64,000 bases of DNA from a phage. A model generated the notes under the pieces. It was not told the origin of the DNA. It worked only from the letters and a program-made list of their open reading frames with translations, and did no database searches. Below, piece after piece: positions 45,777-57,571 of this stretch. A program made the position numbers and the translations under genes. The DNA is taken from sequence record PZ445443.1; one strand, 5' to 3'. The first letter of the stretch is position 1, and the number at the start of each line of letters is the position of its first letter.

Positions 45777-45780
45777 GAGG

Positions 45781-45808: not shown

Positions 45809-45839
45809 ATACGCATAAACTAACAGAGGGCGATGTATT

Positions 45840-46031: not shown

Positions 46032-46041
46032 GTATCGTGCC

Positions 46042-46374
46042 ATGGTAACATTGGAAAGACGTAAAGCTATTGCCGCCACACTGGCAGACATCTTTTGGGA
46101 TTGTAATTTAAAATCTACCCGAAATTGTGGTGCATCTGTAGATGTATTATTCCCACGGCCTACTATTGTTGCAATGGGCAACCTGCTCGATGTGGTATAT
46201 GGAGCATGGGACAAGGAAGGTGGATTCTATATCTGGCAACCTGACTACGGGACTTGGAAAGAGGTTAGTGGTTCTTCGGACTTCACTCCTGCAGTGGCTA
46301 AAATGGATGGCTGGAAAATCTATGTCGGTAACGACATGGAACTGAAAGGCGAAATTGTTTACTGGTTACCTTAA
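46042..46374 (+). CDS. hypothetical protein (110 aa)
   Basis: ORF track. Confidence 0.5.
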   Translation: MVTLERRKAIAATLADIFWDCNLKSTRNCGASVDVLFPRPTIVAMGNLLDVVYGAWDKEGGFYIWQPDYGTWKEVSGSSDFTPAVAKMDGWKIYVGNDMELKGEIVYWLP

Positions 46375-46395
46375 GAAAGTCCAGGAGATAAAGTT

Positions 46396-46641
46396 ATGAA
46401 CAAAGGGTGGACATTTGTAGACGGCGTTAAAAACATGCCTCTAGGAAAGTATATTGTAGCCATGGCAGATGAGAATGGCAAGGTGGATTTCGGAGTTTGC
46501 GAGGTTGTTCTTGCAGGATCTGGTGACTATGCTCACAAAACTGGGATAATTAACGGTCATTTCTACTTTGATTACAACCCTGTTGTGGCGTATATGGCTA
46601 TGCCAGAGTTAGAGCTCCCAAAGGAGGGTGCAGATGTTTAA
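46396..46641 (+). CDS. hypothetical small protein (81 aa)
   Basis: ORF track; RBS AGGAGA. Confidence 0.5.
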   Translation: MNKGWTFVDGVKNMPLGKYIVAMADENGKVDFGVCEVVLAGSGDYAHKTGIINGHFYFDYNPVVAYMAMPELELPKEGADV

Positions 46642-46831
46642 GCTTAAATCTGCATGGAACATCGCTGTAGGGGACGAGATCCGCATCCCAGGTGGAAAGA
46701 CCATTATGAAGATATCACGTATCGAGTATGAAGGTGATCGTGTATTTCATATCTTTGCAGAAGATGGTCGAGAAATTTATATACAGGCAGGCTCTCACAT
46801 CTATATCCGTAAGAAAGGGGACGACAAATGA
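46634..46831 (+). CDS. hypothetical small protein (65 aa)
   Basis: ATG 46634 with AAGGAGGG 5 nt upstream. Confidence 0.5.
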   Translation: MFKLKSAWNIAVGDEIRIPGGKTIMKISRIEYEGDRVFHIFAEDGREIYIQAGSHIYIRKKGDDK

Positions 46832-47160
46832 CAGAGATCATCGTTTCAACTGCAGGGTATGTATTCCTGACAATCATTGCGCTGGCTATTCTGGTGGCGG
46901 TGTATGGATTTGTTATCCTGCCTATTCTTGAGACATTTAGTTTGTGTCGGTGTTGGAGAAAAGCTTACGGACCACAACCGTGGAAAGACTGGTTCCATTT
47001 GGTGCGTATAGCGTTCTCTTATGCCTATGACCACTCCAGCAGTGCATGCGTAACCGGGTACCATGCCTACAACTGGAACTGGGAAGGTGTGGGAAGGTGG
47101 ACTGTTACAAAAACTATACCCTTGCGTTTATATAAAGGAAAGAACAAACTGGGCACCTGA
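46828..47160 (+). CDS. predicted membrane protein (110 aa)
   Basis: ORF track; hydrophobic segment VFLTIIALAILVAVYGFVILPIL; ATGA coupling. Confidence 0.5.
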   Translation: MTEIIVSTAGYVFLTIIALAILVAVYGFVILPILETFSLCRCWRKAYGPQPWKDWFHLVRIAFSYAYDHSSSACVTGYHAYNWNWEGVGRWTVTKTIPLRLYKGKNKLGT

Positions 47161-47164
47161 TATT

Positions 47165-47700
47165 TTTAAATTGCCAAGTTGCCAGAAATCAGGAGAATTT
47201 CTAAAATGGATTTTCTCCTGATATTTTGAACACATAGATATTTTAAAATTCTTAGAAAATCAGAAAATGGATCGAAAACTAAAATGGATTTTTTCAACAC
47301 AGGCGCGGAAAATTGTGCCAATCTATCTAGCCGTTTGCACCATATTCGAGATCACCGTTCCAGATTTCCTACACATACACACCTCTCCACCATACCTTTC
47401 TCCACTCACTCTTAGTGATTTATGACGGAAAACCCATCACTATCTTGAAGTTGCGGTGCAGTTTTCCAAGTACTCGATCTGTTTTTCGTTTCAAAGATTG
47501 AATTTTCTGAAAATTTTTCTCGATAAATTTCTCAGTACTCGATCTGTTTTTCGTTTTCTGAATCGGATTTTCTGGAAATCGTTCCGGCTCTCGACCTGAA
47601 ATTTTTGGGGACGAAATCGATTTTTCGTTTTCAGAAATGGATTTTTAAAATTTCTATATAGGAATATTTTAGTGGATACTATTTTATAGGAAATTGTTAC
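47165..47700. repeat. AT-rich non-coding region with inverted and direct repeats (origin-like)
   Basis: Inverted repeat TCAGGAGAA/TTCTCCTGA (47189-47221); 23-bp direct repeat AGTACTCGATCTGTTTTTCGTTT at 47469 and 47534; recurring AAAATGGAT and TTTCGTTTTC motifs; no ORF. Confidence 0.45.
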
Positions 47701-47759
47701 GGAGGGTAATTAGCGTGCTAATTAAATTTATTAAATGTGAGGAGTTCTCATTTAGAATT

Positions 47760-48110
47760 TTGAATGATAATCATTCTCGTTTGCAGAATAACGGGCAGGC
47801 CCGGTGATTGTCTCCCGGCCCCTGTTGCCCCGGCTTGTTATTATAGTATCACACAGGACAAAGAAAGCAAGGATTTTTTGCATAAATTTTTAAATGATAA
47901 TGATAACCGTTCTCATTTTATGCAGCGCCCATCCCCGGTGGTTGTCTCCCCCGTCACCGGTGCCTGCCGTCCTTTCGATAGGTATATTGTGCTACCTGGC
48001 GGGGCCGCTGTCAACACCTTTCAAAAAAAAAATTATAACCAGGTGCGCCCACTGCCAGTACCTGGCGGGGCCAACCTGGCAGGTCCGCGCTATAAAGTGA
48101 ACAGATGAAG
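47760..48110. repeat. two related GC-rich structured elements in an AT-rich intergenic region
   Basis: Both units share AATGATAAT...TTCTC-TTT-GCAG...CCGGTG-TTGTCTCCC; further TGGCGGGGCC repeats at ~47998 and ~48062; track ORF 47764..48108 is Pro/Gly-rich and coincides with the repeats. Confidence 0.35.
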
Positions 48111-48302
48111 AAGAGGTACATAAATGAAAGGTAATATGATCCCCTGGAAAATGTAGCTATTAATGACGCTGAGGCTATCGCCCTGGTTGAAAAGGCTATG
48201 GCGGGAGCGTTGGAACATAAAGAAGAGTACGAAAAAATGATGGTTAACCTGGCAGGGGCGGCGGCTGGAGAATTCTGCCCAAAAAATAATTTTAACTAAT
48301 GG

Positions 48303-48331
48303 TTGACAGCTCGGACAGTTCTTGTTATTCT
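48303..48331 (+). promoter_or_regulatory. sigma70-like promoter (weak -10)
   Basis: TTGACA (48303-48308), 17-nt spacer, TATTCT. Confidence 0.35.
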
Positions 48332-48383
48332 TATCCTCGCAAGGTGAACAACACCACACTAATTAACAGAGAGGATAAAAATC

Positions 48384-48581
48384 ATGAACGCCTACGGAAT
48401 CAAAGTACGTCGCAGCACTCGCCAGGTGGTCACCGATCAAATGGTTTGCCGGGTGGATGTAACCATCAACAACGGGCAAGGCCTTTATAAATTTCGTCGC
48501 GGTCATAGCTATACCCTGCAACAGCTTAACCGTTGCTCCCTGACAAAAGGTCAGATCAACCACTGGTTTAATAAAAAATAA
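48384..48581 (+). CDS. early small protein (65 aa)
   Basis: ORF track; RBS GAGGA. Confidence 0.5.
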   Translation: MNAYGIKVRRSTRQVVTDQMVCRVDVTINNGQGLYKFRRGHSYTLQQLNRCSLTKGQINHWFNKK

Positions 48582-48584
48582 ATA

Positions 48585-48613
48585 TTGACATGTGGTCTGA
48601 CACAAAATATACT
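48585..48613 (+). promoter_or_regulatory. sigma70-type promoter
   Basis: TTGACA (48585-48590), 17-nt spacer, TATACT (48608-48613). Confidence 0.6.
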
Positions 48614-48645
48614 GAAATCACAAAAGACACTAAGAGGATAAAATC

Positions 48646-49044
48646 ATGAAAACCACAACCTTTAATTTTGATAATGCCGACTTCTCTTTTTCTGATGTTA
48701 AAAGCTGCCGCCGTGATCGCGGATTCTACAAGGCCTATAATCTGGTGGGCCTGGACGATGACAATAATTTGCACGAAGTAGCTGAGATCCGGTATTATGC
48801 CGCCGCCAGCGGTAACACTCATTACTGTGTATTTTGGATTCACGACAACAAGAACAATAAGTACGGTTATACTGGCGGCAAGGCGAGCGGTCACGGTTAT
48901 GATAAAGCCAACGCTGCACTTGAAAGCGCATTAAGTGCCATGGGAATCACTGCCGACGGCTGGATCTATGAAGAAGAGTTTTTGGCGGCACTTGCTAACC
49001 ACTTGGGCTATAAAAAGCACATTGTAACATGCGCCCACGAATAA
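48646..49044 (+). CDS. early protein (132 aa)
   Basis: ORF track; RBS AAGAGGA. Confidence 0.55.
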   Translation: MKTTTFNFDNADFSFSDVKSCRRDRGFYKAYNLVGLDDDNNLHEVAEIRYYAAASGNTHYCVFWIHDNKNNKYGYTGGKASGHGYDKANAALESALSAMGITADGWIYEEEFLAALANHLGYKKHIVTCAHE

Positions 49045-49058
49045 AAAAAAAAAAATTA

Positions 49059-49086
49059 TTGACACGCTGCAAAATTCAAGTAAACT
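49059..49086 (+). promoter_or_regulatory. sigma70-type promoter
   Basis: TTGACA (49059-49064), 16-nt spacer, TAAACT (49081-49086); preceded by A-tract. Confidence 0.55.
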
Positions 49087-49096
49087 AGGCACAAAA

Positions 49097-49114
49097 GGCG
49101 GGAAACATCCCGCC
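49097..49114 (+). promoter_or_regulatory. conserved 5' leader hairpin (GGCGGG-loop-CCCGCC)
   Basis: GGCGGGaaacatCCCGCC ~11 nt after the -10 and before the SD; related copies at 49770, 51619, 55721. Confidence 0.45.
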
Positions 49115-49131
49115 AACACAGAGGAAAAGCT

Positions 49132-49527
49132 ATGAATAAGAACGTACGCCGCATCATGAACGAACTGGCAAACGATGAAAAAATTATTGACATGCATTTG
49201 GTCAACATTTGCCGCCGTTGTGTAACATATAACAACCGCGCCGCAAAAGCGCGTGAGATGAACGCAAAAGGCACCTTAAAGCCCTTTCAGGTGGTTGTAA
49301 AATCTATAACTAATGCAGCAGGCCAGGCGCATGATCACAACAACGAGAGCACTAATATTGATCCGTCTTACGTAATGAAACGGATCCGGACTTGCAAGAA
49401 TAAAGAGCAGGTGTATAACGTCATAGATTGGCTTGATTCCATGGGCGACGTGGTTTATAATAGGTTTTCTGCAGCTATCGAGATCCAGCTTGACAGGTTG
49501 GACGGGAAAGTACTAAAAACTTATTAA
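49132..49527 (+). CDS. early protein (131 aa)
   Basis: ORF track; RBS AGAGGAAAAG. Confidence 0.55.
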   Translation: MNKNVRRIMNELANDEKIIDMHLVNICRRCVTYNNRAAKAREMNAKGTLKPFQVVVKSITNAAGQAHDHNNESTNIDPSYVMKRIRTCKNKEQVYNVIDWLDSMGDVVYNRFSAAIEIQLDRLDGKVLKTY

Positions 49528-49530
49528 GCT

Positions 49531-49575
49531 TATTTTTAGATGGCCTTGACTCCAGGGCCATCAATAAAGTAAACT
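49531..49575 (+). promoter_or_regulatory. repeated 45-bp hairpin/promoter element, copy 1
   Basis: TATTTTTAGATGGCCTTGACTCCAGGGCCATCAATAAAGTAAACT; inverted repeat GATGGCC/GGCCATC encloses TTGACT; TAAACT 18 nt downstream as candidate -10. Confidence 0.5.
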
Positions 49576-49608
49576 AACCACAGTTAAGCGGAAAAGGGGG
49601 GCTTGAAG

Positions 49609-49728
49609 ATGAGTACTACACGCCAACACACAAAGGTAACTATTATCGTTTGCATCATTGGTTACATCCTGGCGCAAATGTTGATGGGTAGCGCCAATGA
49701 TTTCGCAAAATTTTTCTTAAACTTTTAA
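49609..49728 (+). CDS. small hydrophobic protein (39 aa, below ORF-track cutoff)
   Basis: ATG 49609 with AAAAGGGGGG upstream; MSTTRQHTKVTIIVCIIGYILAQMLMGSANDFAKFFLNF; downstream of element copy 1. Confidence 0.4.
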   Translation: MSTTRQHTKVTIIVCIIGYILAQMLMGSANDFAKFFLNF

Positions 49729-49756
49729 TTGACAAGCTAACTTAAATCAGTATAAT
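49729..49756 (+). promoter_or_regulatory. sigma70 consensus promoter
   Basis: TTGACA (49729-49734), 16-nt spacer, TATAAT (49751-49756). Confidence 0.65.
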
Positions 49757-49809
49757 ACTAAGCACATAAACGGGAAAACTTCCCAGAACACACAAAAGGA
49801 GAAAACATT

Positions 49810-50160
49810 ATGAATACTTCCATCACTATGACCACCGAAGAAAAAGCCCTGCAGATCGCCGCTCTGAAAAAACAGATTGCAGAACTGGAAGACAAGATCG
49901 ACAATTTTGAAATCGACGAAGACAAATACGATGATAAATATGATGAATGGTTGGACGAGATCCACGGCGAAATTATGATCGGTTGTATCTCTTTCCTCCC
50001 TTCACGTATCCTTAGGGAGCTGGATCCTATCGCTTACCGTTGCGGCTTTAGCGATTATATTGATAGCCTAGATATTGAAGATGACGAAGAATACCAGGAA
50101 TTGCAGACAGAGCTTGAAGAAGCAAAAGAAGAGCTTGCAGAACTGGAAGAAAACGAGTAA
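49810..50160 (+). CDS. early acidic coiled-coil protein (116 aa)
   Basis: ORF track; RBS AAAGGAGAA; Glu/Asp-rich heptad-like sequence. Confidence 0.55.
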   Translation: MNTSITMTTEEKALQIAALKKQIAELEDKIDNFEIDEDKYDDKYDEWLDEIHGEIMIGCISFLPSRILRELDPIAYRCGFSDYIDSLDIEDDEEYQELQTELEEAKEELAELEENE

Positions 50161-50163
50161 ATT

Positions 50164-50208
50164 TATTTTTAGATGGCCTTGACTCCAGGGCCATCAATAA
50201 AGTAAACT
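50164..50208 (+). promoter_or_regulatory. repeated 45-bp hairpin/promoter element, copy 2
   Basis: Near-identical to copy 1; TTGACT 50179-50184, TAAACT 50203-50208; starts right after upstream stop codon. Confidence 0.5.
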
Positions 50209-50249
50209 TTACACTGTTAACACTGAACTAATACAGAGGAGTTAAAACC

Positions 50250-50495
50250 ATGGCAGCACTAATCACCAAATATTATGCCCCTACCAACACCAAAAGCGCC
50301 CGTATCATGGTAAAAGGCTTCGGACGTAAAAAGGTTTACACCTGGGATTATTCCCTAGACATGGAAGACAACTACACCAACGCAATGACCGATTTTATTA
50401 ATGAACTAAATAAGCAGATCTTGACAAGTTATAAAGTGACAGATATTGCTTATATAGGTGAAGGCGGGATCTGTTTTGTGGGCATTGTGAAATAG
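50250..50495 (+). CDS. early small protein (81 aa)
   Basis: ORF track; RBS AGAGGAG. Confidence 0.55.
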   Translation: MAALITKYYAPTNTKSARIMVKGFGRKKVYTWDYSLDMEDNYTNAMTDFINELNKQILTSYKVTDIAYIGEGGICFVGIVK

Positions 50496-50496
50496 T

Positions 50497-50540
50497 TATT
50501 TTTTCGGTGGTCCTGGCTGCAGGGCCATCTATAAAGATAA
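50497..50540 (+). promoter_or_regulatory. degenerate copy of the hairpin/promoter element
   Basis: TTTTCGGTGGTCCTGGCTGCAGGGCCATCTATAAAG: keeps the GGGCCATC arm and A/T-rich 3' part but lacks TTGACT. Confidence 0.3.
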
Positions 50541-50569
50541 TTTATTAACACCATGAAAGGAGAAAGTAC

Positions 50570-50923
50570 ATGATCAGCGGGGCTAGTTTTATTATTGGCG
50601 CTATTGCTACGGCTTTAATTGTAAACAAGATCCAGGATAAAAAGGAAAGAGGAAGTACCGCCCTTGCAGAATATCCATTTTGGACATTTAACGATAACGA
50701 AGATTATATTATAAAGTATAAAAATAAAGAGGGTGACCAAGTAACACCGCGACCGATCCCAGCTTACAAGATGCAGGAAACACTATACCGCCTGGAGGCG
50801 GGGGGCGCAAAAATTGTAGACTTTTGGGGATACGACCACACAGATCAGGAAGTTATAAAGCGCCGTATCCGGGCTATTCAGGCCAATATTGAAGTTAGCA
50901 AGGGGGGAATATATGAAAATTAA
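50570..50923 (+). CDS. early membrane-anchored protein (117 aa)
   Basis: ORF track; RBS AAAGGAGAAAG; N-terminal hydrophobic helix ISGASFIIGAIATALIV. Confidence 0.5.
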   Translation: MISGASFIIGAIATALIVNKIQDKKERGSTALAEYPFWTFNDNEDYIIKYKNKEGDQVTPRPIPAYKMQETLYRLEAGGAKIVDFWGYDHTDQEVIKRRIRAIQANIEVSKGGIYEN

Positions 50924-51110
50924 TTTCGAGAAAATTGTAAAGCGCCCTCATGATTCCGAAGAGCTGCCAGAACGCCGCCAGCGTAACAATAAACTGAATA
51001 AGCCAAAAAGGTTTGGGAAGATCTGGCGTAATCATTATGATCGTAAATTGCCCGGCCTACTTTTGGAGCGTGAACGACAGGCAGAACGATACCGCCATAA
51101 AGACAAATAA
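50913..51110 (+). CDS. early basic small protein (65 aa)
   Basis: ATG 50913 with AAGGGGGG upstream; Arg/Lys-rich. Confidence 0.45.
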   Translation: MKINFEKIVKRPHDSEELPERRQRNNKLNKPKRFGKIWRNHYDRKLPGLLLERERQAERYRHKDK

Positions 51111-51116
51111 CAACCA

Positions 51117-51146
51117 ACGCCCAGCCATTGTGCGGGGCTTTTTATT
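51117..51146 (+). terminator. putative terminator (short stem + T-tract)
   Basis: GCCC...GGGC short stem followed by TTTTTATTTC. Confidence 0.35.
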
Positions 51147-51268
51147 TCTATCCTACGAATAGCGCCCCTGGTTGGCCCTGTAAGCGCCAAAAAGGCCCCC
51201 ACCTATGCAATCGCCCCCTTTAACCTGAAAACATCGCCCAGGGCCGTTTCATGGCGTTAAAAATATCA

Positions 51269-51296
51269 TTGACATCGTCAACAGGTTAGCTATACT
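51269..51296 (+). promoter_or_regulatory. sigma70-type promoter
   Basis: TTGACA (51269-51274), 16-nt spacer, TATACT (51291-51296). Confidence 0.6.
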
Positions 51297-51328
51297 AACC
51301 ACATCAAAGAGAGAAAGGAGTAAACGCC

Positions 51329-51601
51329 ATGCGTAAATTAAAAAATTTTGATAAAGTTGATGTTATCCTGAATAATTTTTACTACTGCAACAACAAGGCT
51401 ATTTGGTGGCGTGATAGTTCCACCGATAAAGTCAGGGCGCGCTTTCTTCAGGGGCACTGGCAAGGCCGCCCGGTGATTAAAATCATGGGGCAATTGGTAG
51501 CGTTTAAAAATTGCCGCCGTGTTGATGACGTTGAGGAGATTTTAAACATTTTGCGCCACAATAATTTAAAAAAAATAGTGTTGACAAGTAAGCCTCAATA
51601 A
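51329..51601 (+). CDS. early protein (90 aa)
   Basis: ORF track; RBS AAAGGAG. Confidence 0.5.
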   Translation: MRKLKNFDKVDVILNNFYYCNNKAIWWRDSSTDKVRARFLQGHWQGRPVIKIMGQLVAFKNCRRVDDVEEILNILRHNNLKKIVLTSKPQ

Positions 51602-51609
51602 GTATACTT
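51581..51609 (+). promoter_or_regulatory. sigma70-type promoter (overlaps 3' end of upstream gene)
   Basis: TTGACA (51581-51586), 17-nt spacer, TATACT (51604-51609); followed by leader hairpin GGCGGGaaaactTCCCGCC (51619-51637). Confidence 0.6.
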
Positions 51610-51665
51610 AAACACACAGGCGGGAAAACTTCCCGCCACTAACAAAGAAAATAGGAGAAAATATC

Positions 51666-52289
51666 ATGACCACCGTTAACATTACCGCAGGTTACAATTT
51701 ATCTTTCGACGTGCTGACCGACGAACAAAAAGAAAAAGCCGTTGAAATGGTCCGCGAAAGAGAAGAACACAGCGGGGATAACTTTTTTGCAGAAAGTGTA
51801 ATTGAATACTATAAAGAATATGTTTTTCCAGAGTATGGCCTTGAAGATACCGAAGTACATTGGTCAGGCTTTTGGTGCCAGGGTGACGGCGCGTCAATCA
51901 GTGCTGAAAACGTGGATTTAGAAAAATTTTTGCGTAAAGTAAAGGCCCTGACCAAGTTCCGATCAATTCGTCACTTGTTCGGCACAATGCACGATGGCGA
52001 GTTATCAGCCAGTGTTGAACGCGACAAGTACAGCCATTACAGCCATGAAAACACTGTAAGCGGGTACATTGATACCACTTGGCTAGATCTGACCGCCAAA
52101 CAAGAAAACAAAGTTGAAGAGCTGGAAGAGCTGATCACCGAGACGGTACGGGAGCTATCCCGCAAGGTTTACGTAGACCTGGAGGAGGCCTATCTTGAAC
52201 AGTTTACTACCGAAAACCTGATCGGCCTTATTGAAGCCAATGATTGGCGGTTTGATGTGGATGAATATGGGGAGATGAGTTTTTCATAA
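51666..52289 (+). CDS. early protein (207 aa)
   Basis: ORF track; RBS AGGAGAA. Confidence 0.55.
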   Translation: MTTVNITAGYNLSFDVLTDEQKEKAVEMVREREEHSGDNFFAESVIEYYKEYVFPEYGLEDTEVHWSGFWCQGDGASISAENVDLEKFLRKVKALTKFRSIRHLFGTMHDGELSASVERDKYSHYSHENTVSGYIDTTWLDLTAKQENKVEELEELITETVRELSRKVYVDLEEAYLEQFTTENLIGLIEANDWRFDVDEYGEMSFS

Positions 52290-52297
52290 ATAAAGTG

Positions 52298-52325
52298 TTG
52301 CAATAATCTAAAAACCTGCTATATT
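52298..52325 (+). promoter_or_regulatory. sigma70-like promoter
   Basis: TTGCAA (52298-52303), 16-nt spacer, TATATT (52320-52325). Confidence 0.45.
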
Positions 52326-52378
52326 AAAACTCAAGGGGCGAGATGACTTGCCCCACACAAAACAAAGAGGATAACATC

Positions 52379-52759
52379 ATGAAAAACACCACCAAGGCCA
52401 TTGACACCGTTATGTTTAACCTGGTTACATTCCGTGAAGATATGAAAGATCTTCCACGTGAAACAGTGTGCGACCATATCGAAAACTATCGCAAACTTAT
52501 TAAAGAATTGCCATTGAAACGAGATCAGTACGCGGCTAACGCCATGCTTAACGCCATGATCAAAAAGATGATTCAGTGTGATTTAACTCTGGCCTATGAT
52601 TATGCAGGTGGTCGTTTTGCAGTATACAATCAGCCCGTGCCTGGTATGAGCACCACCGAAGAATTGCACGCGCTCAATCTAAAACAAGATGTGTGGGATA
52701 GTATGCCCCGCGTGGTGGTATGGGTAGAAAGCGGAAAGATTTACGGCGATAATTTTTAA
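52379..52759 (+). CDS. early protein (126 aa)
   Basis: ATG 52379 with AAGAGGA upstream (track start 52343 lacks RBS). Confidence 0.5.
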   Translation: MKNTTKAIDTVMFNLVTFREDMKDLPRETVCDHIENYRKLIKELPLKRDQYAANAMLNAMIKKMIQCDLTLAYDYAGGRFAVYNQPVPGMSTTEELHALNLKQDVWDSMPRVVVWVESGKIYGDNF

Positions 52760-52770
52760 TCAGGTAACAG

Positions 52771-52798
52771 GCGGCGGCATATTTGCCGCCTTATTGTT
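52771..52798 (+). terminator. rho-independent terminator
   Basis: GGCGGC-atattt-GCCGCC followed by TTATTGTT. Confidence 0.55.
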
Positions 52799-52826
52799 AA
52801 TCAGAACTGTAAAAGAGGTACATAGA

Positions 52827-53198
52827 ATGGAATTTATCATTTTGGCTATATTAGTTGCCTTGTTTAACGCCTGGATCGCTGGCAAGATGGGTAGATCCGC
52901 CTTTTTATGGTTTATTATATCTATCTTCCTGGGAGTGGTTGCAACTATTGTATTGGTTATCCTTGCAATTGTTGACAAGGGGAATAATAGAAAGGGTAAA
53001 GTATTTTCAGACCTGTACGACGCTCAAACGTTTGTCAACGCCTATTATAGTGATCTTCCAGTCTCCCTACGTTGCAGCCTTGCACAACAGGTTTTCGATG
53101 AAGCTAAAACCAGAGATCACGCCCATGAGATTTGTTTAACTGAGGCGGATCGCCTATTTGAGAGGAATAGAAAATATGTGGACCAGCCGTTTAAATAA
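52827..53198 (+). CDS. early membrane protein (123 aa, two predicted TM helices)
   Basis: ATG 52827 with AAGAGG upstream; MEFIILAILVALFNAWIAG...FLWFIISIFLGVVATIVLVILAIV. Confidence 0.5.
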   Translation: MEFIILAILVALFNAWIAGKMGRSAFLWFIISIFLGVVATIVLVILAIVDKGNNRKGKVFSDLYDAQTFVNAYYSDLPVSLRCSLAQQVFDEAKTRDHAHEICLTEADRLFERNRKYVDQPFK

Positions 53199-53397
53199 TG
53201 CCACGTTAATTAACCCCTTTAGTGAAGATTTGAAGCCAGCCGCCTGGCGTGATGGATTCAATAACGAAAGCTTTATTTTCAGGCCTGATCTTAAGGAATT
53301 TTATAACAATGGATCGAACAACGACAGAGATAATTTTTCTTGTAATGTGCGTGGTGATAATACTCCTGGGGGCCATTGCAAACCACGTCACTGCTAA
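53176..53397 (+). CDS. hypothetical small protein (73 aa); frame choice uncertain
   Basis: ATG 53176 with GAGAGGAA upstream; competes with overlapping ORF 53249..53434 in another frame. Confidence 0.3.
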   Translation: MWTSRLNNATLINPFSEDLKPAAWRDGFNNESFIFRPDLKEFYNNGSNNDRDNFSCNVRGDNTPGGHCKPRHC

Positions 53398-53417
53398 CAG
53401 GAGGGAAGGGGGAGACG

Positions 53418-53537
53418 ATGACACCCAAGGATAAGCCCCGCACCGATAAGGCGCGCCGTGTTATGGTATGGCTTGAGATCATCGCCCTTGAAATATTGTT
53501 AGGCGTAGGGATGTATTTTATCGCTGTAAGTAACTGA
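53418..53537 (+). CDS. small hydrophobic protein (39 aa, below ORF-track cutoff)
   Basis: ATG 53418 with GGAGGGAAGGGGGAG upstream; MTPKDKPRTDKARRVMVWLEIIALEILLGVGMYFIAVSN; followed by terminator. Confidence 0.4.
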   Translation: MTPKDKPRTDKARRVMVWLEIIALEILLGVGMYFIAVSN

Positions 53538-53541
53538 TAAC

Positions 53542-53581
53542 GGCCCCCGATCCCTGGGGGCCTAACTTTTTAATTTTTTTT
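53542..53581 (+). terminator. rho-independent terminator
   Basis: GGCCCCC-gatccct-GGGGGCC followed by TAACTTTTTAATTTTTTTT. Confidence 0.6.
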
Positions 53582-53679
53582 CTCCCTGGGTGTTGCAATC
53601 CGATCCAGAATATGGATAATAACAATCAACGGGGAGACACTCCCCACCGCACAGACAAAGTTCCAAAAGGAGAAACAAA

Positions 53680-53880
53680 ATGAGCAATAATATCCGCGTT
53701 ATTAACTTCAAAAAAGAAGAAAAAATTGCTGTACTGGTTGATGGTCAAGAAATCTTCAAGGGCGATTATGAAGATCATCAAACGGCGATTAGTATCACTC
53801 GCGTGATTGGTTACCATAATTTCTACCCCCAAGGCGCTGAGGCAGCAGTTAAACGAATCAAAGAGATTGTAGGCCTGTAA
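53680..53880 (+). CDS. early small protein (66 aa)
   Basis: ORF track; RBS AAAAGGAGAAA. Confidence 0.55.
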   Translation: MSNNIRVINFKKEEKIAVLVDGQEIFKGDYEDHQTAISITRVIGYHNFYPQGAEAAVKRIKEIVGL

Positions 53881-53884
53881 AATT

Positions 53885-53929
53885 TATTTTTAGATGGCCT
53901 TGACTCCAGGGCCATCAATAAAGTAAATT
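53885..53929 (+). promoter_or_regulatory. repeated 45-bp hairpin/promoter element, copy 3
   Basis: TATTTTTAGATGGCCTTGACTCCAGGGCCATCAATAAAGTAAATT; TTGACT 53900-53905, TAAATT 53924-53929; starts right after upstream stop. Confidence 0.5.
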
Positions 53930-53964
53930 TAAACCCTGTTAAAATACCACGCAGTTAACAAGGA

Positions 53965-54273
53965 GTGATAGACATGTTTATCCAGGCTAATAATCTTTAT
54001 TTCTTTGATGGTCAGATCGTAGATGGTGTGGAAGTGGAGATCACCGGGTGCCCTGGCGGTCAGGCTATGACTTTCCGGAATAATGCCTTTGATGATTCTC
54101 ATATCGTTATGAAAATGGAAGTTACGAAGCTGGACGACAAGAAAGCACTCATTGACTATTCTGTGAAAGATCATCCAGACTACCACATGATCTATGGTGA
54201 TTTGTGCATTGTTGACCGTGACAAGGTAGGCGGCATTGTGATCGCTATTGTGAACGATGTTTTCTCAAACTAA
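53965..54273 (+). CDS. early protein (102 aa)
   Basis: ORF track; RBS AAGGAG. Confidence 0.55.
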   Translation: MIDMFIQANNLYFFDGQIVDGVEVEITGCPGGQAMTFRNNAFDDSHIVMKMEVTKLDDKKALIDYSVKDHPDYHMIYGDLCIVDRDKVGGIVIAIVNDVFSN

Positions 54274-54290
54274 TTTCAGCAGGTGATTTT

Positions 54291-54641
54291 ATGAAAGTCA
54301 AACTATATTACCTTAATGAGCTTAACCCCCTTGCCCAGGTCCGCGCCCTGGCTAATACCTTGATTTGTGAGAAATCTGTATATTGTGTTGAGCTTAACGC
54401 CATGCGTGAACGTCTCAAAGGTGGTTACTTTGACATCCATGCTGCAATCAACGGCCTGAATATGGAATTTATACGCCTACGTAACAGCCGCCGGAATCTG
54501 GCAAGAATGGAACAAGATCCGGCCCACCTTCGTAAACTGGTTATTGAAAATCATCTGATGTTCAATGCCGAGGGTGATTATTACCATTTTAACCGCAAAC
54601 GTTGGTACCGTGGCGGCAATACAGACAAGGATGCAAAATAA
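54291..54641 (+). CDS. early protein (116 aa)
   Basis: ORF track; weak RBS. Confidence 0.5.
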   Translation: MKVKLYYLNELNPLAQVRALANTLICEKSVYCVELNAMRERLKGGYFDIHAAINGLNMEFIRLRNSRRNLARMEQDPAHLRKLVIENHLMFNAEGDYYHFNRKRWYRGGNTDKDAK

Positions 54642-54677
54642 GGCCCCTAGCAGGGCCTGCAGCGATATAATCACATA

Positions 54678-54711
54678 AAGGCCATGCAACCGCATGGCCT
54701 TTATTATTTTG
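54678..54711 (+). terminator. rho-independent terminator
   Basis: GGCCATGC-aacc-GCATGGCC followed by TTTATTATTTT; a second hairpin AGGCCC...GGGCCT lies just upstream. Confidence 0.6.
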
Positions 54712-54758
54712 GCGTTACAACGGCATACGGAGCGCTTAAAAATTTTTTAAATAAGTAC

Positions 54759-54787
54759 TTGCATCATGTCCGACAATATGGATAATA
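54759..54787 (+). promoter_or_regulatory. sigma70-like promoter
   Basis: TTGCAT, 17-nt spacer, ATAATA. Confidence 0.4.
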
Positions 54788-54845
54788 AGAGTTGTCGAAG
54801 GGGCTATGCCTCCAATCATTAACCGGATAGATAGGAGTTAAAATC

Positions 54846-55130
54846 ATGGCTATTGTTACCGCTGGTGATGTAGTAGAAATGGAAGCAAAATACTTAAAAA
54901 CTGGTATGCATATCCTACGCAACGATCTTGAACTGGTCCTGACAATGGTTGACTATAACCCAGGGCAAGATTATCCAAGTGTTGACTACTTTTTTGAGTA
55001 TGTCGATGAAGAGCTAAAAGAGGATGAGGCCTACTGCGGAGAATTCTGCAACTACTTTTGCCCTGACGAGGTTGTAAAAGTTATCTACCAACCTGGCGTA
55101 CCTTTCCCGCTACACGCTATCAATAAATAA
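54846..55130 (+). CDS. early protein (94 aa)
   Basis: ORF track; RBS TAGGAG. Confidence 0.55.
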   Translation: MAIVTAGDVVEMEAKYLKTGMHILRNDLELVLTMVDYNPGQDYPSVDYFFEYVDEELKEDEAYCGEFCNYFCPDEVVKVIYQPGVPFPLHAINK

Positions 55131-55185
55131 ACCTGGCGGGGCCGAAAAGGCCCCCAATTATGAAAATAAAGAGAGGCAAATCATC

Positions 55186-55419
55186 ATGATGGAACAAATT
55201 AAACGCGCCGAGGCTATTAATGGCAACGTGATCTATTTTGTCAGCAAAAACGAAAAAGGCGTACCCTATGCGGCGGTAATAGTACAGCCTGACGGCGATT
55301 ATTGGTGCACTGTGTACGGCGCTTATTCTTTTGGGCGTCCAGTGCATGATAAAATTTTGAAAGTAGCGAACCCTACCGGGAAAAATATCACAGCAGAAAA
55401 ATTTTTTGAAAATAGTTGA
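55186..55419 (+). CDS. early small protein (77 aa)
   Basis: ORF track; RBS AGAGAGG. Confidence 0.5.
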   Translation: MMEQIKRAEAINGNVIYFVSKNEKGVPYAAVIVQPDGDYWCTVYGAYSFGRPVHDKILKVANPTGKNITAEKFFENS

Positions 55420-55443
55420 CACGACCATATAAGACTGTAGTAT
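55416..55443 (+). promoter_or_regulatory. sigma70-like promoter
   Basis: TTGACA (55416-55421), 16-nt spacer, TAGTAT. Confidence 0.5.
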
Positions 55444-55496
55444 ATAAATCAAAGGGGGGCAACAAGCCCCACCAACCACAAAGAGGATAAAAAATC

Positions 55497-55676
55497 ATGG
55501 CTATTATTGCAAAGACTGAGATCGTAGGCTTAGATTCTATTCTTCTCGCATATGAGGAAGCTATAGAAATGTATGTGGTTTCCTATGGTGAATATATCCG
55601 TGAATATAAATCTATTGATCTAGCTTTTGAATGTTATATTCGCCAGGTCAATAAAGCATATGATGATTATCGTTAA
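55497..55676 (+). CDS. early small protein (59 aa, below ORF-track cutoff)
   Basis: ATG 55497 with AAGAGGA upstream; promoter and GC hairpin in leader. Confidence 0.45.
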   Translation: MAIIAKTEIVGLDSILLAYEEAIEMYVVSYGEYIREYKSIDLAFECYIRQVNKAYDDYR

Positions 55677-55682
55677 AATAGT

Positions 55683-55710
55683 TTGACAACAGTCAACAAT
55701 CTGGTAAAGT
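55683..55710 (+). promoter_or_regulatory. sigma70-like promoter
   Basis: TTGACA (55683-55688), 16-nt spacer, TAAAGT; followed by leader hairpin GCGGGAatactTCCCGC (55721-55740). Confidence 0.45.
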
Positions 55711-55758
55711 GTACTACATAGCGCGGGAATACTTCCCGCCATTAATGAGGATAATTTA

Positions 55759-55896
55759 ATGAAAACTTTCAACGCAACAGTCTCGACAATTGGTTATATT
55801 ATTACAGTACAAGCCGTGGATCTGGTAGCAGCAGCAAACAAGATTAAAAAGATGATTCCGCCAGGCAGTGAATTTTCCGTTTGGAAAGTAAAATAA
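55759..55896 (+). CDS. early small protein (45 aa, below ORF-track cutoff)
   Basis: ATG 55759 with GAGGA upstream; MKTFNATVSTIGYIITVQAVDLVAAANKIKKMIPPGSEFSVWKVK. Confidence 0.4.
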   Translation: MKTFNATVSTIGYIITVQAVDLVAAANKIKKMIPPGSEFSVWKVK

Positions 55897-55899
55897 ATC

Positions 55900-55927
55900 T
55901 TGACAATAGTTTATTACTTGATAGACT
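55900..55927 (+). promoter_or_regulatory. sigma70-like promoter
   Basis: TTGACA (55900-55905), 16-nt spacer, TAGACT. Confidence 0.5.
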
Positions 55928-56094
55928 GTATTTCGTAGGGCGGGGCAATAAGGCAACGCCCATTAATGATGGTAGAATCATGTTAGATAAAATTTTCACG
56001 GTTGTAGTAGTTGGCCTGGCATTATAGGTTGGAGTGGTTGCAACTATGGCTAACATGATCCTATCTTCCCATGGTATCGGTTAAGGTGAATCAA

Positions 56095-56310
56095 ATGATC
56101 ACGAATAAGACAGGTAAAACGGAATTCTTGCGCGGCTTGCAGATCGGCAAGCCAGAGATCTGGTATTGCACTAAAACACCACGTGACGAAATGAAAGACT
56201 TCACCGCCACGCTGCAACGGGTAAAGATATCCATCACGCAGAAAAAGGCCTTGATAGTGGTGGAAGGTGAGATCCCTCAAACCGTTGTTATAGTTGAGCG
56301 TACAGCATAG
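56095..56310 (+). CDS. early small protein (71 aa)
   Basis: ATG 56095 with AAGGTG upstream (track start 56071 lacks RBS). Confidence 0.45.
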   Translation: MITNKTGKTEFLRGLQIGKPEIWYCTKTPRDEMKDFTATLQRVKISITQKKALIVVEGEIPQTVVIVERTA

Positions 56311-56401
56311 TTTAATTTATAGCGATACCTGAAAATTAACCAATAAATCATAAACAGGCGGTTACCGCCGCCTTAAACGTAGCAGAAAGAGGCTAGACAC
56401 A

Positions 56402-56686
56402 ATGAAAAAGATGATCGCAGTAGTTGCCCTGGTTGTTGGACTTAATGCACCTGTAATGGCTAAAGAGCTGGCAAAAGAGGTTAATCTAACGGATATCCAT
56501 GCCGTCAATCAAATCGGGGTTACTTATCGCTTATGCCTTGCCGCTAAAACTTTTAATGACGGTACAACAGAGTACTACGGATTCGAAGGTATCCGGTGCG
56601 GTGAGCTTGCTCGCGACCTTAAGGAAGATCCAGACCTGGAAGATCTGCCCATCACCGTAAACGGTAAAGCTTACGTAAACCGTTAA
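56402..56686 (+). CDS. early secreted/periplasmic protein (94 aa) with cleavable signal peptide
   Basis: MKKMIAVVALVVGLNAPVMA-KE signal peptide without lipobox Cys; RBS AAGAGG. Confidence 0.6.
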   Translation: MKKMIAVVALVVGLNAPVMAKELAKEVNLTDIHAVNQIGVTYRLCLAAKTFNDGTTEYYGFEGIRCGELARDLKEDPDLEDLPITVNGKAYVNR

Positions 56687-56688
56687 CC

Positions 56689-56823
56689 ATGAGAAAGATA
56701 ATCATCACCTTGGGGATTGTGGCGGGATCGCTGGCGCTCTTTCCCCTTATGGTTAGGTATGTGCTGATCAGTATTGTCCTGGTAGTCAGTGATCTATTGG
56801 AAACGGTTGGCACCTTGTTTTAA
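56689..56823 (+). CDS. small hydrophobic protein (44 aa, below ORF-track cutoff)
   Basis: ATG 56689 2 nt after upstream stop (coupling); MRKIIITLGIVAGSLALFPLMVRYVLISIVLVVSDLLETVGTLF. Confidence 0.35.
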   Translation: MRKIIITLGIVAGSLALFPLMVRYVLISIVLVVSDLLETVGTLF

Positions 56824-56835
56824 AGAGCGGTAAAA

Positions 56836-57027
56836 ATGAATATCGAACAAGTTAGAAAAGTATTAGCGGTACTGCGTTATCATAATCATAGAAAGGTCAT
56901 AGACGATCCTGATTATGTTGATTCAAGCCTGGAAGGGGATACACTACAAGCTATAAGTAACATGCAAGAATTGCTAAAGCGCATGACAGAGAAAAACCGA
57001 CCGGACTACATAGGCGAAAAAATATAA
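56836..57027 (+). CDS. early small protein (63 aa)
   Basis: ORF track. Confidence 0.5.
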   Translation: MNIEQVRKVLAVLRYHNHRKVIDDPDYVDSSLEGDTLQAISNMQELLKRMTEKNRPDYIGEKI

Positions 57028-57043
57028 TATTTATAAACTACAA

Positions 57044-57080
57044 AACAGGGCTTGCAATGGTCCTGTTTTTTGTTATACTT
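57044..57080 (+). terminator. putative terminator
   Basis: ACAGG...CCTGT stem followed by TTTTTTGTT. Confidence 0.45.
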
Positions 57081-57155
57081 GTTTCACGGCAGGCACCTGG
57101 CGACGGGTGGAGACAATCACCGGGCCTGCCTGTCATATAAGAACTATAAAAACCG

Positions 57156-57184
57156 TTGACATCTGCCATGGGGTGGGGTAACAT
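57156..57184 (+). promoter_or_regulatory. sigma70-like promoter
   Basis: TTGACA (57156-57161), 17-nt spacer, TAACAT. Confidence 0.5.
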
Positions 57185-57238
57185 TTATCTTGAAGGGGCA
57201 AAAGTGCCCACACAACAACCAGGAGAGAGGAAAACACT

Positions 57239-57511: not shown

Positions 57512-57571
57512 TAAGATAATGACACGGGCCAAAAGGCCCACTAATCAGAACCGCACAAAGAGGTAAACATC

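What the first reader, a model, noticed from the sequence alone, without database searches (positions are those of the whole stretch)
49531..53929. Repeated 45-bp hairpin/promoter element after stop codons of early genes
Three near-identical copies of TATTTTTAGATGGCCTTGACTCCAGGGCCATCAATAAAGTAAAC (49531-49575, 50164-50208, 53885-53929) plus one degenerate copy (50497-50540) each start right after an upstream stop codon and sit ~35-40 nt before the next RBS. Each holds a 7-bp inverted repeat GATGGCC/GGCCATC whose loop is the -35-like hexamer TTGACT, with TAAACT/TAAATT 18 nt downstream. This differs from the canonical promoters elsewhere in the cluster and could be a co-regulated promoter class with an operator palindrome, a processing site, or a factor-dependent promoter.
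Basis: seen in the sequence. Interest (0 to 1): 0.65.

Follow-up and report, generated by a model that had tools for sequence, protein, structure and literature searches.

The report
Repeated promoter/stem-loop cassette in rV5-like phage
A ~49-base element repeated four times between early genes of an rV5-like E. coli phage is a conserved RNA hairpin fused to a probable host-type promoter. Its copies also act as crossover points for gaining, losing and swapping small gene cassettes, much like the "PeSL" cassettes known from T4-type phages.

Summary
There are three exact 24-nt hairpin cores plus one diverged copy, each 2-4 nt after a stop codon, and none occurs in shuffled sequence. The window is a Vequintavirus (rV5-like) early region, and about 120 related phage records carry about three copies each.

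The 7-bp palindrome understates the structure. The + sense RNA forms a 10-bp upper helix with a 4-nt loop on a 10-bp A/U lower helix. Across 37 distinct copies, 98.6% of pair cells are paired and four pairs change on both sides. Stems are nearly invariant and loops hypervariable. G·U pairs make the + sense fit better than the - sense (98.6% vs 86.4%). This argues for an RNA structure rather than a protein operator.

There is no U-tract, so it is not a canonical terminator. Its architecture resembles the T7 early RNase III sites.

The promoter reading (TTGAC[T/A]-N18-TAAA[C/T]T) is supported indirectly. TTGAC is invariant, and in the Justusliebigvirus KKE7M the element's -10 replaces a canonical -10 in exact register.

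Copies recombine. Four genomes lack exactly the 633 bp between copies 1 and 2 and keep one chimeric element.

Verdict: a PeSL-like composite cassette, a new member of a known kind. The promoter and RNA roles are inferred, not shown.

The parts
49527..49575 (+). Element copy 1. Lower helix 49527-49536 / 49566-49575; upper helix 49539-49548 / 49553-49562; loop ACUC 49549-49552. -35-like TTGACT 49546-49551; -10-like TAAACT 49570-49575.
   Evidence: Exact match; RNA fold; hexamers; pair counts; covariance-model hit at 88.5 bits.
50160..50208 (+). Element copy 2. Upper helix 50172-50181 / 50186-50195. -35-like 50179-50184; -10-like 50203-50208.
   Evidence: Fold z-score -7.3 over 55 nt.
50494..50542 (+). 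Diverged copy. It has the same two-helix RNA fold (upper helix 50506-50515 / 50520-50529, loop GCUG). The -35 is lost (CTGGCT). The -10-like hexamer is GATAAT, which drifts to GATAGT and GACAGT in relatives.
   Evidence: The stem is invariant in 18 genomes, the loop has five variants, and the lower helix covaries.
53881..53929 (+). Element copy 4. Upper helix 53893-53902 / 53907-53916. -35-like 53900-53905; -10-like TAAATT 53924-53929. The C-to-T change at 53928 is matched by A at 53882 (pair 14-60 in the alignment).
   Evidence: It is the longest inverted repeat in 46000-57900 (I1).
49576..50208 (+). A 633-bp cassette bounded by copies 1 and 2. It holds a 39-aa gene (49609-49728), the canonical promoter 49729-49756, a 116-aa gene (49810-50160) and copy 2. 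It is present or absent among relatives.
   Evidence: Precisely missing in ime, phiWec189, ECP32 and an IMG/VR contig, each of which keeps one chimeric element. Both genes belong to PHROGs of unknown function.
49729..49756 (+). Canonical sigma-70 promoter (TTGACA-N16-TATAAT) inside the cassette. It marks the left end of the module shared with the Justusliebigvirus KKE7M.
50250..50495 (+). An 81-aa ORFan flanked on both sides by elements (copy 2 upstream, diverged copy downstream). Its homologues lie in unrelated phage groups.
   Evidence: tblastn finds 40-44% identity in Seuratvirus-like and Pseudomonas phages. It matches phrog_3199, function unknown.

Best explanation
The four copies are composite intergenic regulatory cassettes of the kind described as PeSLs (promoter-early stem-loops) in T4-type phages, here in an rV5-like phage.

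**1. RNA stem-loop (shown by comparison).** Transcripts arriving from the upstream gene fold the element into an extended stem-loop that begins at the stop codon. It has a 10-bp G/C-rich upper helix with a 4-nt loop, a small internal loop, and a 10-bp A/U lower helix. This + sense RNA structure is under purifying selection.

**2. Role of the RNA (inferred).** There is no U-tract, so it is not a standard intrinsic terminator. It most likely marks or protects the 3' end of the upstream message. This could be through RNase III-type cleavage in the internal loop, as at the T7 early sites, which would leave a protective 3' hairpin. Alternatively it could act as an exonuclease barrier or a weak attenuator.

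**3. Internal promoter in the three near-identical copies (inferred).** The same DNA carries a host sigma-70 promoter. The -35 (TTGACT or TTGACA) lies in the apical loop region. The -10 (TAAACT or TAAATT) lies in the 3' strand of the lower helix, after an 18-bp spacer. It would restart transcription about 25-40 nt before the next start codon. The diverged copy has kept only the RNA part.

**4. Recombination substrate (shown by comparison).** The copies share 45-60 bp of identity. They therefore homogenise one another and mediate precise loss or gain of the genes between them. Their promoter part allows in-register cassette exchange with other promoters, even across phage subfamilies.
For: **RNA structure**
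- 98.6% of 740 pair cells are paired, and the upper helix is 100% paired.
- Four lower-helix pairs change on both sides. No shuffle out of 500 reaches the observed values, and slid controls give 35-56%.
- In the diverged copy, pair 15-59 goes U-A to C-G, and pair 17-57 goes A-U to G·U to G-C.
- There are 99 G·U cells against 8 A·C cells. Pairing is 98.6% in the + sense and 86.4% in the - sense.
- Nucleotide diversity is about 0 in the stems, 0.13-0.32 in the loop and 0.05-0.14 in the flanks.
- Fold z-scores are -4 to -7.

**Not a terminator.** The tail is AAUAAAGUAAAC. The terminator scan lists 25 other sites in the region but none of these, on either strand.

**Resemblance to T7 RNase III sites.** The five T7 early intercistronic hairpins fold into the same architecture: upper helix, internal loop, lower helix.

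**Promoter**
- The hexamers score 9 of 12 with an 18-nt spacer.
- TTGAC is invariant, while the sixth base varies among T, A and G.
- AGTAAACT is shared with the canonical promoter at 49059, and TAAACTAACCACA resembles the promoter at 51269 (D14).
- PhagePromoter calls these sites promoters in phage Gotham.
- In KKE7M the element's -10 replaces muut's canonical -10 in exact register, ahead of the same 5'UTR hairpin.

**Recombination**
- A precise 633-bp deletion with a single chimeric element is seen in four genomes.
- Copies 1 and 2 share the same loop variant in 8 of 11 genomes (permutation P = 0.004).
- In KKE7M the element is 100% identical while the adjacent gene is 85% identical.

**Match to the PeSL description.** PeSLs are described as running from a stop codon in an AT-rich stretch, through a sigma-70 promoter and a stem-loop that may overlap the -35 and contain G-T pairs, to the SD and start codon. 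They sit next to ORFans and are linked to deletions that leave one element (PMC2839356).
Against: - No transcript data exist for any of this. Promoter activity, cleavage and attenuation are all untested.
- The promoter match is only 9 of 12 with a suboptimal 18-bp spacer. The scan finds about 27 such matches per 12 kb by chance.
- TTG and the -10 both lie inside helices, so their conservation could be due to the RNA alone.
- The diverged copy shows the hairpin can persist without a -35.
- The right-hand junction in KKE7M rests on only about 8 bp of shared sequence. It shows compatibility, not activity.
- The covariation comes from few independent events among closely related genomes. One genome (SKEL01000041) has a C·A mismatch at pair 15-59.
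- PeSL stem-loops were reported to be effective terminators, whereas this one lacks a U-tract.
Confidence: 0.6

Rival explanations
1. RNA-only element. It is an intercistronic processing or stability hairpin (RNase III site or 3'-exonuclease barrier) inside polycistronic early transcripts. The promoter-like hexamers would be incidental by-products of a G/C helix set in A/T-rich flanks.
For: - All evidence for structural conservation applies here too.
- The diverged copy keeps the fold but not the -35, and its -10-like hexamer drifts in step with base pairing.
- The elements lie inside units bounded by canonical promoters and terminators.
- The architecture is like the T7 RNase III sites.
- A 9-of-12 promoter score is common by chance.
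Against: - Loop bases A and C of TTGAC are invariant in about 50 main copies, while loop positions 3-4 vary freely. In the diverged family loop position 2 does vary.
- The -10 octamer is shared with canonical promoters.
- KKE7M shows an in-register replacement of a canonical -10.
Confidence: 0.22
2. Promoter with a protein operator. The 7-bp inverted repeat GATGGCC/GGCCATC flanking the -35 would be bound by a phage or host dimeric regulator that co-regulates the three genes. The hairpin potential would be irrelevant.
For: The 7-bp arms are perfect and overlap the -35 in three identical copies. The arms are invariant among close relatives.
Against: - The complementarity extends to 10 + 10 bp, including A/U-rich arms with compensatory changes.
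- All arm substitutions are of the G·U-tolerated kind in the + sense only. Examples are C6U in FFH2 and the three left-arm transitions in the diverged copy.
- The half-site centres are 17 bp apart, which does not place them on one face of the helix.
- No candidate regulator was identified.
Confidence: 0.06
3. Plain rho-independent terminator, as two copies are annotated in the phage Murica record.
For: Murica's record annotates the 45-bp diverged copy and copy 4 as 'terminator'. The hairpin is strong and G/C-rich. PeSL stem-loops terminated well in a reporter.
Against: - There is no U-tract on either strand. The T-run lies 5' of the hairpin and pairs with the 3' A-rich tail.
- The consensus scan did not call the element, although it called 25 other sites, including canonical terminators at 52769, 53542 and 54675.
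- Genes continue on the same strand about 30-45 nt later.
Confidence: 0.05
4. Selfish small mobile palindrome (MITE- or REP-like) that spreads on its own, with no function for the phage.
For: It is a repeated, palindromic, intergenic element. An identical copy occurs in a phage of another subfamily.
Against: - Copy number is fixed at about three plus one, at orthologous sites, in about 120 genomes.
- The element alone shows no presence/absence polymorphism, and no target-site duplications were seen.
- It is absent from E. coli genomes and from 185,579 species genomes.
- In KKE7M it arrived together with a gene.
Confidence: 0.04

Closest known systems
PeSL (promoter-early stem-loop) cassettes of T4-type phages (Arbiol et al. 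2010, PMC2839356; Comeau et al. 2014, PMC4122927)
   Same: - Both are repeated intergenic motifs in the plastic early region, next to ORFans.
- Both start at the upstream stop codon in an AT-rich stretch.
- Both combine a sigma-70-type promoter with a stem-loop that can overlap the -35 and contains G-T pairs, followed by the SD and start codon of the next gene.
- In both, two flanking copies collapse to one chimeric copy where a relative lacks the intervening gene.
   Different: - The phage lineage differs (Vequintavirinae and Stephanstirmvirinae, not T4-like).
- There are only four copies of this family per genome, against about 50 PeSLs.
- The promoter is sub-consensus with an 18-bp spacer.
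- The stem-loop is an extended two-helix hairpin with no U-tract, and its RNA pairing is supported by covariation.
- Promoter and terminator activity and mini-circles were shown experimentally for PeSLs. Nothing has been shown experimentally here.
Phage T7 early RNase III processing sites (R0.3, R0.5, R1, R1.1, R1.3). Their positions are recalled from Dunn & Studier 1983; they are not annotated in the record used.
   Same: - Both are families of similar intercistronic hairpins in early polycistronic mRNA.
- Both have a 9-10 bp upper helix with G·U pairs and a 4-5 nt loop, an internal loop and a 5-10 bp lower helix.
- Both lie just after stop codons, a few tens of nt before the next gene, and next to promoters.
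   Different: - There is no sequence homology.
- The internal loop here is smaller (2 x 3 nt against about 4 x 5 nt).
- The lower helix here is almost pure A/U.
- Cleavage by RNase III has not been tested.
REP/BIME extragenic palindromes of enterobacteria
   Same: Both are repeated imperfect palindromes placed after stop codons inside operons. REPs are known to stabilise upstream mRNA and to act as recombination substrates (from general knowledge).
   Different: There is no sequence match in 5,426 E. coli genomes. This element is phage-borne, carries promoter hexamers and has far fewer copies.
Canonical intrinsic terminators
   Same: Both have a G/C-rich hairpin after a stop codon.
   Different: This element has no 3' U-tract. 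The T-run lies on the 5' side and is sequestered in the lower helix.

Membership tests
PeSL (promoter-early stem-loop) cassette | Repeated conserved motif located in intergenic sites of the variable early (ORFan-rich) region | tested here: met
   Four copies lie within 4.4 kb of an early ORFan cluster. About three copies per genome occur in 120 records.
PeSL (promoter-early stem-loop) cassette | Contains a sigma-70-type promoter with an AT-rich stretch upstream of the -35 | tested here: inconclusive
   TTGAC(T/A)-N18-TAAA(C/T)T scores 9 of 12, with a T-run upstream. This sequence-level match is supported by the KKE7M in-register swap. Activity has not been measured, and the diverged copy lacks the -35.
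PeSL (promoter-early stem-loop) cassette | Contains a stable stem-loop, which may overlap the -35 and contain G-T pairs | tested here: met
   The -35 lies in the loop and 5' arm, and U·G pairs are conserved.
PeSL (promoter-early stem-loop) cassette | Spans from the upstream stop codon to the SD and start codon of the downstream gene | tested here: met
   Each element starts 2-4 nt after a stop codon. The next start codon lies 29-45 nt after the element.
PeSL (promoter-early stem-loop) cassette | Mediates insertions, deletions or replacements between close relatives, leaving a single chimeric element | tested here: met
   The 633-bp cassette is missing in four genomes, each with one element whose flanks come from copy 1 (left) and copy 2 (right). 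A cassette has also moved into KKE7M.
PeSL (promoter-early stem-loop) cassette | Demonstrated promoter and terminator/attenuator activity, and mini-circle formation | not testable with these tools
   This needs reporter assays and PCR on infected cells.
T7-type RNase III processing signal | About 20 bp of helix in two coaxial segments separated by an internal loop, located between cistrons | tested here: met
   The element has 10 + 10 bp helices with a 2 x 3 internal loop.
T7-type RNase III processing signal | Cleaved by host RNase III, with no antideterminant base pairs in the proximal and distal boxes | not testable with these tools
   This needs in vitro cleavage or a comparison of rnc+ and rnc- hosts.
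Rho-independent terminator | U-rich tract immediately 3' of the hairpin | tested here: not met
   The tail is AATAAAGTAAAC on the + strand and TAAAAATAA on the - strand. The terminator scan did not call it.
Operator palindrome for a dimeric DNA-binding protein | Symmetry maintained at the DNA level (both half-sites conserved as true complements) | tested here: not met
   Substitutions are tolerated as G·T on one strand only. Pairing is 98.6% in the + sense and 86.4% in the - sense.
Rfam families | Significant match to a curated covariance model | tested here: not met
   No match overlaps the elements at E up to 1.

The most novel reading that the evidence does not exclude
One 49-bp sequence would be read twice. 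As DNA it would be a sigma-70 promoter whose -35 sits in the tip of the palindrome. As read-through RNA it would be a T7-like RNase III (or similar) processing signal that trims and protects the upstream message. Each early ORFan would then become a self-contained unit of hairpin, promoter and gene. Such units could be excised, lost or moved between phage subfamilies by recombination at the element, showing that PeSL-type modular shuffling is a general strategy of large lytic coliphages beyond the T4 group.
Probability: 0.3. Interest if true: 0.55.

Novelty: new member of a known kind. Interest (0 to 1): 0.4.

Why it matters
- **Conflicting annotations.** Public records call these sites "terminator" (Murica) or "promoter" (Gotham), and the rV5 paper lists neither. 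This analysis gives a testable account that reconciles them.
- **Reach of the PeSL concept.** The composite promoter/stem-loop cassette as an engine of gene-cassette shuffling would extend from T4-type phages to rV5-like and phi92-like phages. These groups are widely used in phage therapy and biocontrol, so turnover of early ORFans (likely host-takeover and anti-defence genes) matters.
- **A clean test system.** The natural variants provide ready-made controls: cassette-minus genomes, a copy with only the hairpin, a copy with a deleted 3' arm, and a cross-subfamily promoter swap.
- **Limits.** The finding is not a new principle.

Tried and rejected
- **Rfam.** A scan of 44000-60000 at E up to 1 found nothing over the elements.
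- **Host origin.** There is no match in 5,426 complete E. coli genomes. A degenerate pattern found none in 185,579 species genomes.
- **Further copies.** The covariance model finds no additional copies in the window. The partial match at 58565-58584 (D4) is not a hairpin.
- **Wasted metagenome scan.** It returned chance hits, one rV5-like contig with a 1-nt longer variant (L037), and one unrelated contig (L025).
- **IMG/VR.** The corrected pattern found only three rV5-like loci, from two contigs (L007 and L011 on one contig, and L010). The other hits do not fold.
- **More distant relatives.** The flanking 81-aa gene is not shared with other Vequintavirinae genera, so covariation had to come from the genus itself.
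- **T7 annotation.** The T7 RefSeq record does not annotate RNase III sites. I folded the intercistronic regions at positions recalled from the literature.
- **Literature.** The library holds no paper linking PeSLs or stem-loop repeats to rV5-like phages and no transcript mapping for Vequintavirus. The rV5 paper's promoter and terminator table does not contain the element.
- **N4-type hairpin promoters.** I considered and dropped these. Nothing suggests a virion RNA polymerase, and the stem and loop sizes differ.
- **DNA cruciform switch.** I considered and dropped this because only 7 bp are perfectly complementary at the DNA level.

Full report
**What the window is.** The region 49000-54500 is 93-95% identical over its full length to more than 110 Vequintavirus genomes (rV5-like E. 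coli myophages such as EdH4, Murica and rV5). It is a run of small same-strand genes. All seven genes next to the elements fall in PHROG families of unknown function. The run is punctuated by canonical sigma-70 promoters (TTGACA-N16/17-TATAAT-like at 48585, 49059, 49729, 51269, 51581, 55683, 55900) and canonical terminators (52769, 53542, 54675).

**The observation.**
- The 24-nt core GATGGCCTTGACTCCAGGGCCATC occurs three times exactly (49539, 50172, 53893). It never occurs in 100 shuffles, even with 3 mismatches allowed.
- With flanks, the three copies are identical over about 47-50 nt, apart from the last base (C, C, T). A fourth, diverged copy lies at 50497-50541.
- A covariance model built later finds just these four sites in the 64 kb.
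- Each copy begins 2-4 nt after a stop codon and ends 29-45 nt before the next start codon.

**The structure is larger than a 7-bp palindrome, and it is an RNA structure.**
- *Fold.* As + sense RNA, each copy gives a 10-bp upper helix (GAUGGCCUUG/CAGGGCCAUC, with one U·G) and a 4-nt loop. A 2 x 3 internal loop separates it from a lower helix of about 10 bp. That lower helix is formed by the 5' U-run, starting in or at the stop codon, and the 3' AAAGUAAAY tail. Fold z-scores run from -4 to -7.
- *Data set.* I collected 65 copies (46 distinct sequences) from 19 related genomes or contigs plus the window.
- *Main copies.* All variation falls at loop positions 3 and 4 (ACUC, ACAC, ACUU, ACGC, ACAU), with three exceptions. 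Two are C-to-U changes in the stem that keep a G·U pair: C15U in copy 4 of EdH4 and phiWec189, and C6U in copy 1 of FFH2. The third is occasional change at the first base of the internal loop.
- *Diverged copy.* The 10-bp stem is invariant in 18 genomes, while the loop has five variants (GCUG, GUAG, GUAA, GUGG, GUUG). Its lower helix covaries: one pair goes U-A to C-G, and another goes A-U to G·U to G-C.
- *Main versus diverged families.* They differ by three left-arm transitions that all keep pairing, and by two fully flipped lower-helix pairs.
- *Formal count on 37 distinct sequences and 20 pairs.* 98.6% of cells are paired, and the upper helix is 100% paired. Four pairs change on both sides. 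No shuffle out of 500 reaches the observed pairing or covariation score, and sliding the partner by 1-3 columns drops pairing to 35-56%.
- *Strand test.* There are 99 G·U cells and only 8 A·C cells. The same helices are therefore 98.6% paired in the + sense but 86.4% in the - sense.
- *Diversity.* Nucleotide diversity is about 0 in the stems, 0.13-0.32 in the loop and 0.05-0.14 in the flanks.
- *Conclusion and caveat.* These patterns point to selection on a + sense RNA hairpin. They argue against a protein operator or a DNA cruciform. The genomes are close relatives, so independent compensatory events are few, and one contig has a C·A mismatch at one pair.

**What the RNA might do.**
- It is not a canonical intrinsic terminator. 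The T-run lies 5' of the hairpin and is paired. The 3' tail is AAUAAAGUAAAC, and the opposite strand reads UAAAAAUAA. The consensus scan, which other terminator-like sites here, calls none of these. Murica's "terminator" annotation of two copies is therefore doubtful.
- The elements sit inside units that have canonical promoters upstream and canonical terminators downstream.
- Folding the five early intercistronic regions of phage T7, where RNase III sites lie by my recollection of Dunn & Studier 1983, gives the same architecture. Each has a 9-10 bp upper helix with G·U pairs and a 4-5 nt loop, an internal loop, and a 5-8 bp lower helix.
- My best inference is 3'-end definition or protection of the upstream message. 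This could be RNase III-type cleavage in the internal loop, an exonuclease barrier, or partial attenuation over the A/U-rich hybrid. This step is inferred, not shown.

**The promoter reading.**
- Taken alone, a 9-of-12 match with an 18-bp spacer is weak. About 27 such matches per 12 kb are expected by chance.
- Four things raise it. (a) TTGAC is invariant in about 50 main copies, including the two loop bases A and C. The sixth -35 base varies (T, A, G, with A giving the consensus TTGACA) and so does the next base. In the diverged family, which has no -35, loop position 2 does vary. (b) The -10 octamer AGTAAACT is also the -10 of the canonical promoter at 49059, and TAAACTAACCACA resembles the promoter at 51269. 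(c) PhagePromoter predicted these sites in phage Gotham. (d) There is a natural swap, described next.
- *The natural swap.* The Justusliebigvirus muut has stop codon, TTGACA-N16-TAAACT, ATATTCATTAA, a G/C 5'UTR hairpin, then SD and ATG. Its relative KKE7M carries an insertion that begins inside that promoter's -10 region. The insertion brings the Vequintavirus 116-aa gene (85% identical) with its leader, and ends with the element (50 of 50 nt identical). The element's TAAATT now sits exactly where muut's TAAACT was, ahead of the same ATATTCATTAA and hairpin. The element thus occupies the place of a canonical promoter in exact register.
- I put promoter function at roughly 0.6-0.65. The diverged copy appears to have kept only the RNA role.

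**Recombination.**
- Phages ime, phiWec189 and ECP32, and an IMG/VR contig, lack exactly window 49576-50208. These 633 bp hold the 39-aa gene, the promoter at 49729, the 116-aa gene and one element copy. Each of these genomes keeps a single element with the left flank of copy 1 and the right flank of copy 2.
- Copies 1 and 2 carry the same loop variant (TC, AC or TT) in 8 of 11 genomes that have both. About 3.4 matches are expected by permutation (P = 0.004). This requires conversion between copies or repeated cassette re-insertion.
- The KKE7M case shows cassette transfer between subfamilies with a joint at the element.
- The 81-aa gene lies between copy 2 and the diverged copy. Its homologues are in unrelated phage groups.

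**Comparison with what is known.**
- The description of PeSLs in T4-type phages fits point by point. A PeSL runs from the upstream stop codon in an AT-rich stretch, through a sigma-70 promoter and a stem-loop that may overlap the -35 and contains G-T pairs, to the SD and start codon. PeSLs lie next to ORFans, and two flanking copies reduce to one chimeric copy in a relative (PMC2839356; PMC4122927).
- The differences are the phage lineage, the low copy number, the sub-consensus promoter, and an extended hairpin without a U-tract that resembles T7 RNase III sites.
- I found no paper in the library linking PeSLs or such repeats to rV5-like phages. The rV5 genome paper lists neither a promoter nor a terminator at these sites.
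- The element is absent from E. coli genomes and from one genome per bacterial species, and from Rfam.

**Verdict.** The feature is real and well conserved. It is best described as a PeSL-like composite cassette, with three parts:
- a + sense RNA stem-loop, which is strongly supported;
- a sigma-70 internal promoter in three of the four copies, which is moderately supported;
- a role as a recombination module, which is directly visible in genome comparisons.

It is a new member of a known kind. Interest is moderate (0.4). The mechanism of the RNA part and the promoter activity both need transcript mapping.

Noticed in passing
window 49097-49114, 49771-49785, 51619-51637, 55722-55741 (and about 55930-55955); also L063 (muut) 1194-1216 and 1514-1535: There is a second repeated family. 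Canonical TTGACA promoters are followed, 9-12 nt after the -10, by a G/C hairpin (GGCGGGAAAACTTCCCGCC-like), so the transcript would begin with a 5' stem-loop. The promoter plus hairpin unit is repeated in the window (D3 and D9) and many times in the Justusliebigviruses KKE7M and muut. It looks like another PeSL subclass or a 5' mRNA stabiliser. On the - strand the scan reads these as terminators.
   Followed up: partly
L023 (KKE7M) 4606-5054 versus L063 (muut) 1494-1501: A Vequintavirus cassette has been inserted promoter-to-promoter into a phage of a different subfamily (Stephanstirmvirinae). The cassette runs from a -10 and leader, through the 116-aa gene, to the element. The gene is 85% identical and the element 100%. 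KKE7M is the only non-Vequintavirus record with the element.
   Followed up: yes
window 47425-47700: This is an AT-rich stretch without convincing ORFs. It holds three direct repeats of about 47-57 nt spaced 65-74 nt apart (47460-47506, 47525-47571, 47599-47645), each containing GATCTGTTTTTCGTTT-like cores. It may be the 'non-coding' box of the rV5 genome map. Its function is unknown; it could be an origin, iterons or a small RNA.
   Followed up: no
L003 (Gotham) 4394-4432: Copy 1 in phage Gotham lacks 5 nt (GGGCC) of the 3' arm. This destroys both the hairpin and the -35/-10 spacing. It is either a tolerated natural knockout of this copy or an assembly error at a hairpin.
   Followed up: no
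L037 (SKEL01000041.1) 3768-3812 and 356-400: A metagenome-assembled rV5-like genome has a copy 4 with CCGGGGGCC in place of CCAGGGCC, which is one nt longer. Its diverged copy has a C·A mismatch at one lower-helix pair.
   Followed up: partly
L025 (IMGVR_UViG_3300042275_000518) 894-946: An unrelated 190-kb viral contig has nearly the same AT-rich flanks (TTTATTTTTAG ... CAATAAAGTAAAT) around a different perfect 11-bp hairpin. It lies 8 nt after a stop codon and about 25 nt before the next gene. This is probably convergence or chance, but the architecture is the same.
   Followed up: partly
L002 (Murica) 2474-2518 and 5861-5905; L003 (Gotham) 5026-5055 and 8769-8798: Public records annotate the same element in contradictory ways. 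Murica calls it 'terminator' and Gotham calls it 'promoter' (by PhagePromoter). The rV5 reference annotates nothing there.
   Followed up: yes
all four copies, loop columns 35-38 of alignment A1: Loop diversity (pi 0.13-0.32) exceeds that of the flanking intergenic and coding DNA (0.05-0.14). This could reflect relaxed constraint combined with conversion between copies, or a mutational hot spot at the hairpin tip.
   Followed up: no
L061 (O157 typing phage 4) from about 6800 onward: Downstream of the diverged copy this partial genome switches to genes on the opposite strand and lacks copy 4. This is a rearrangement or an assembly join.
   Followed up: no
phage collection hits: Seventeen records named 'Campylobacter phage', at least one of them marked UNVERIFIED, are Vequintavirus genomes 93-95% identical to E. 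coli phages. The host labels are probably wrong.
   Followed up: no
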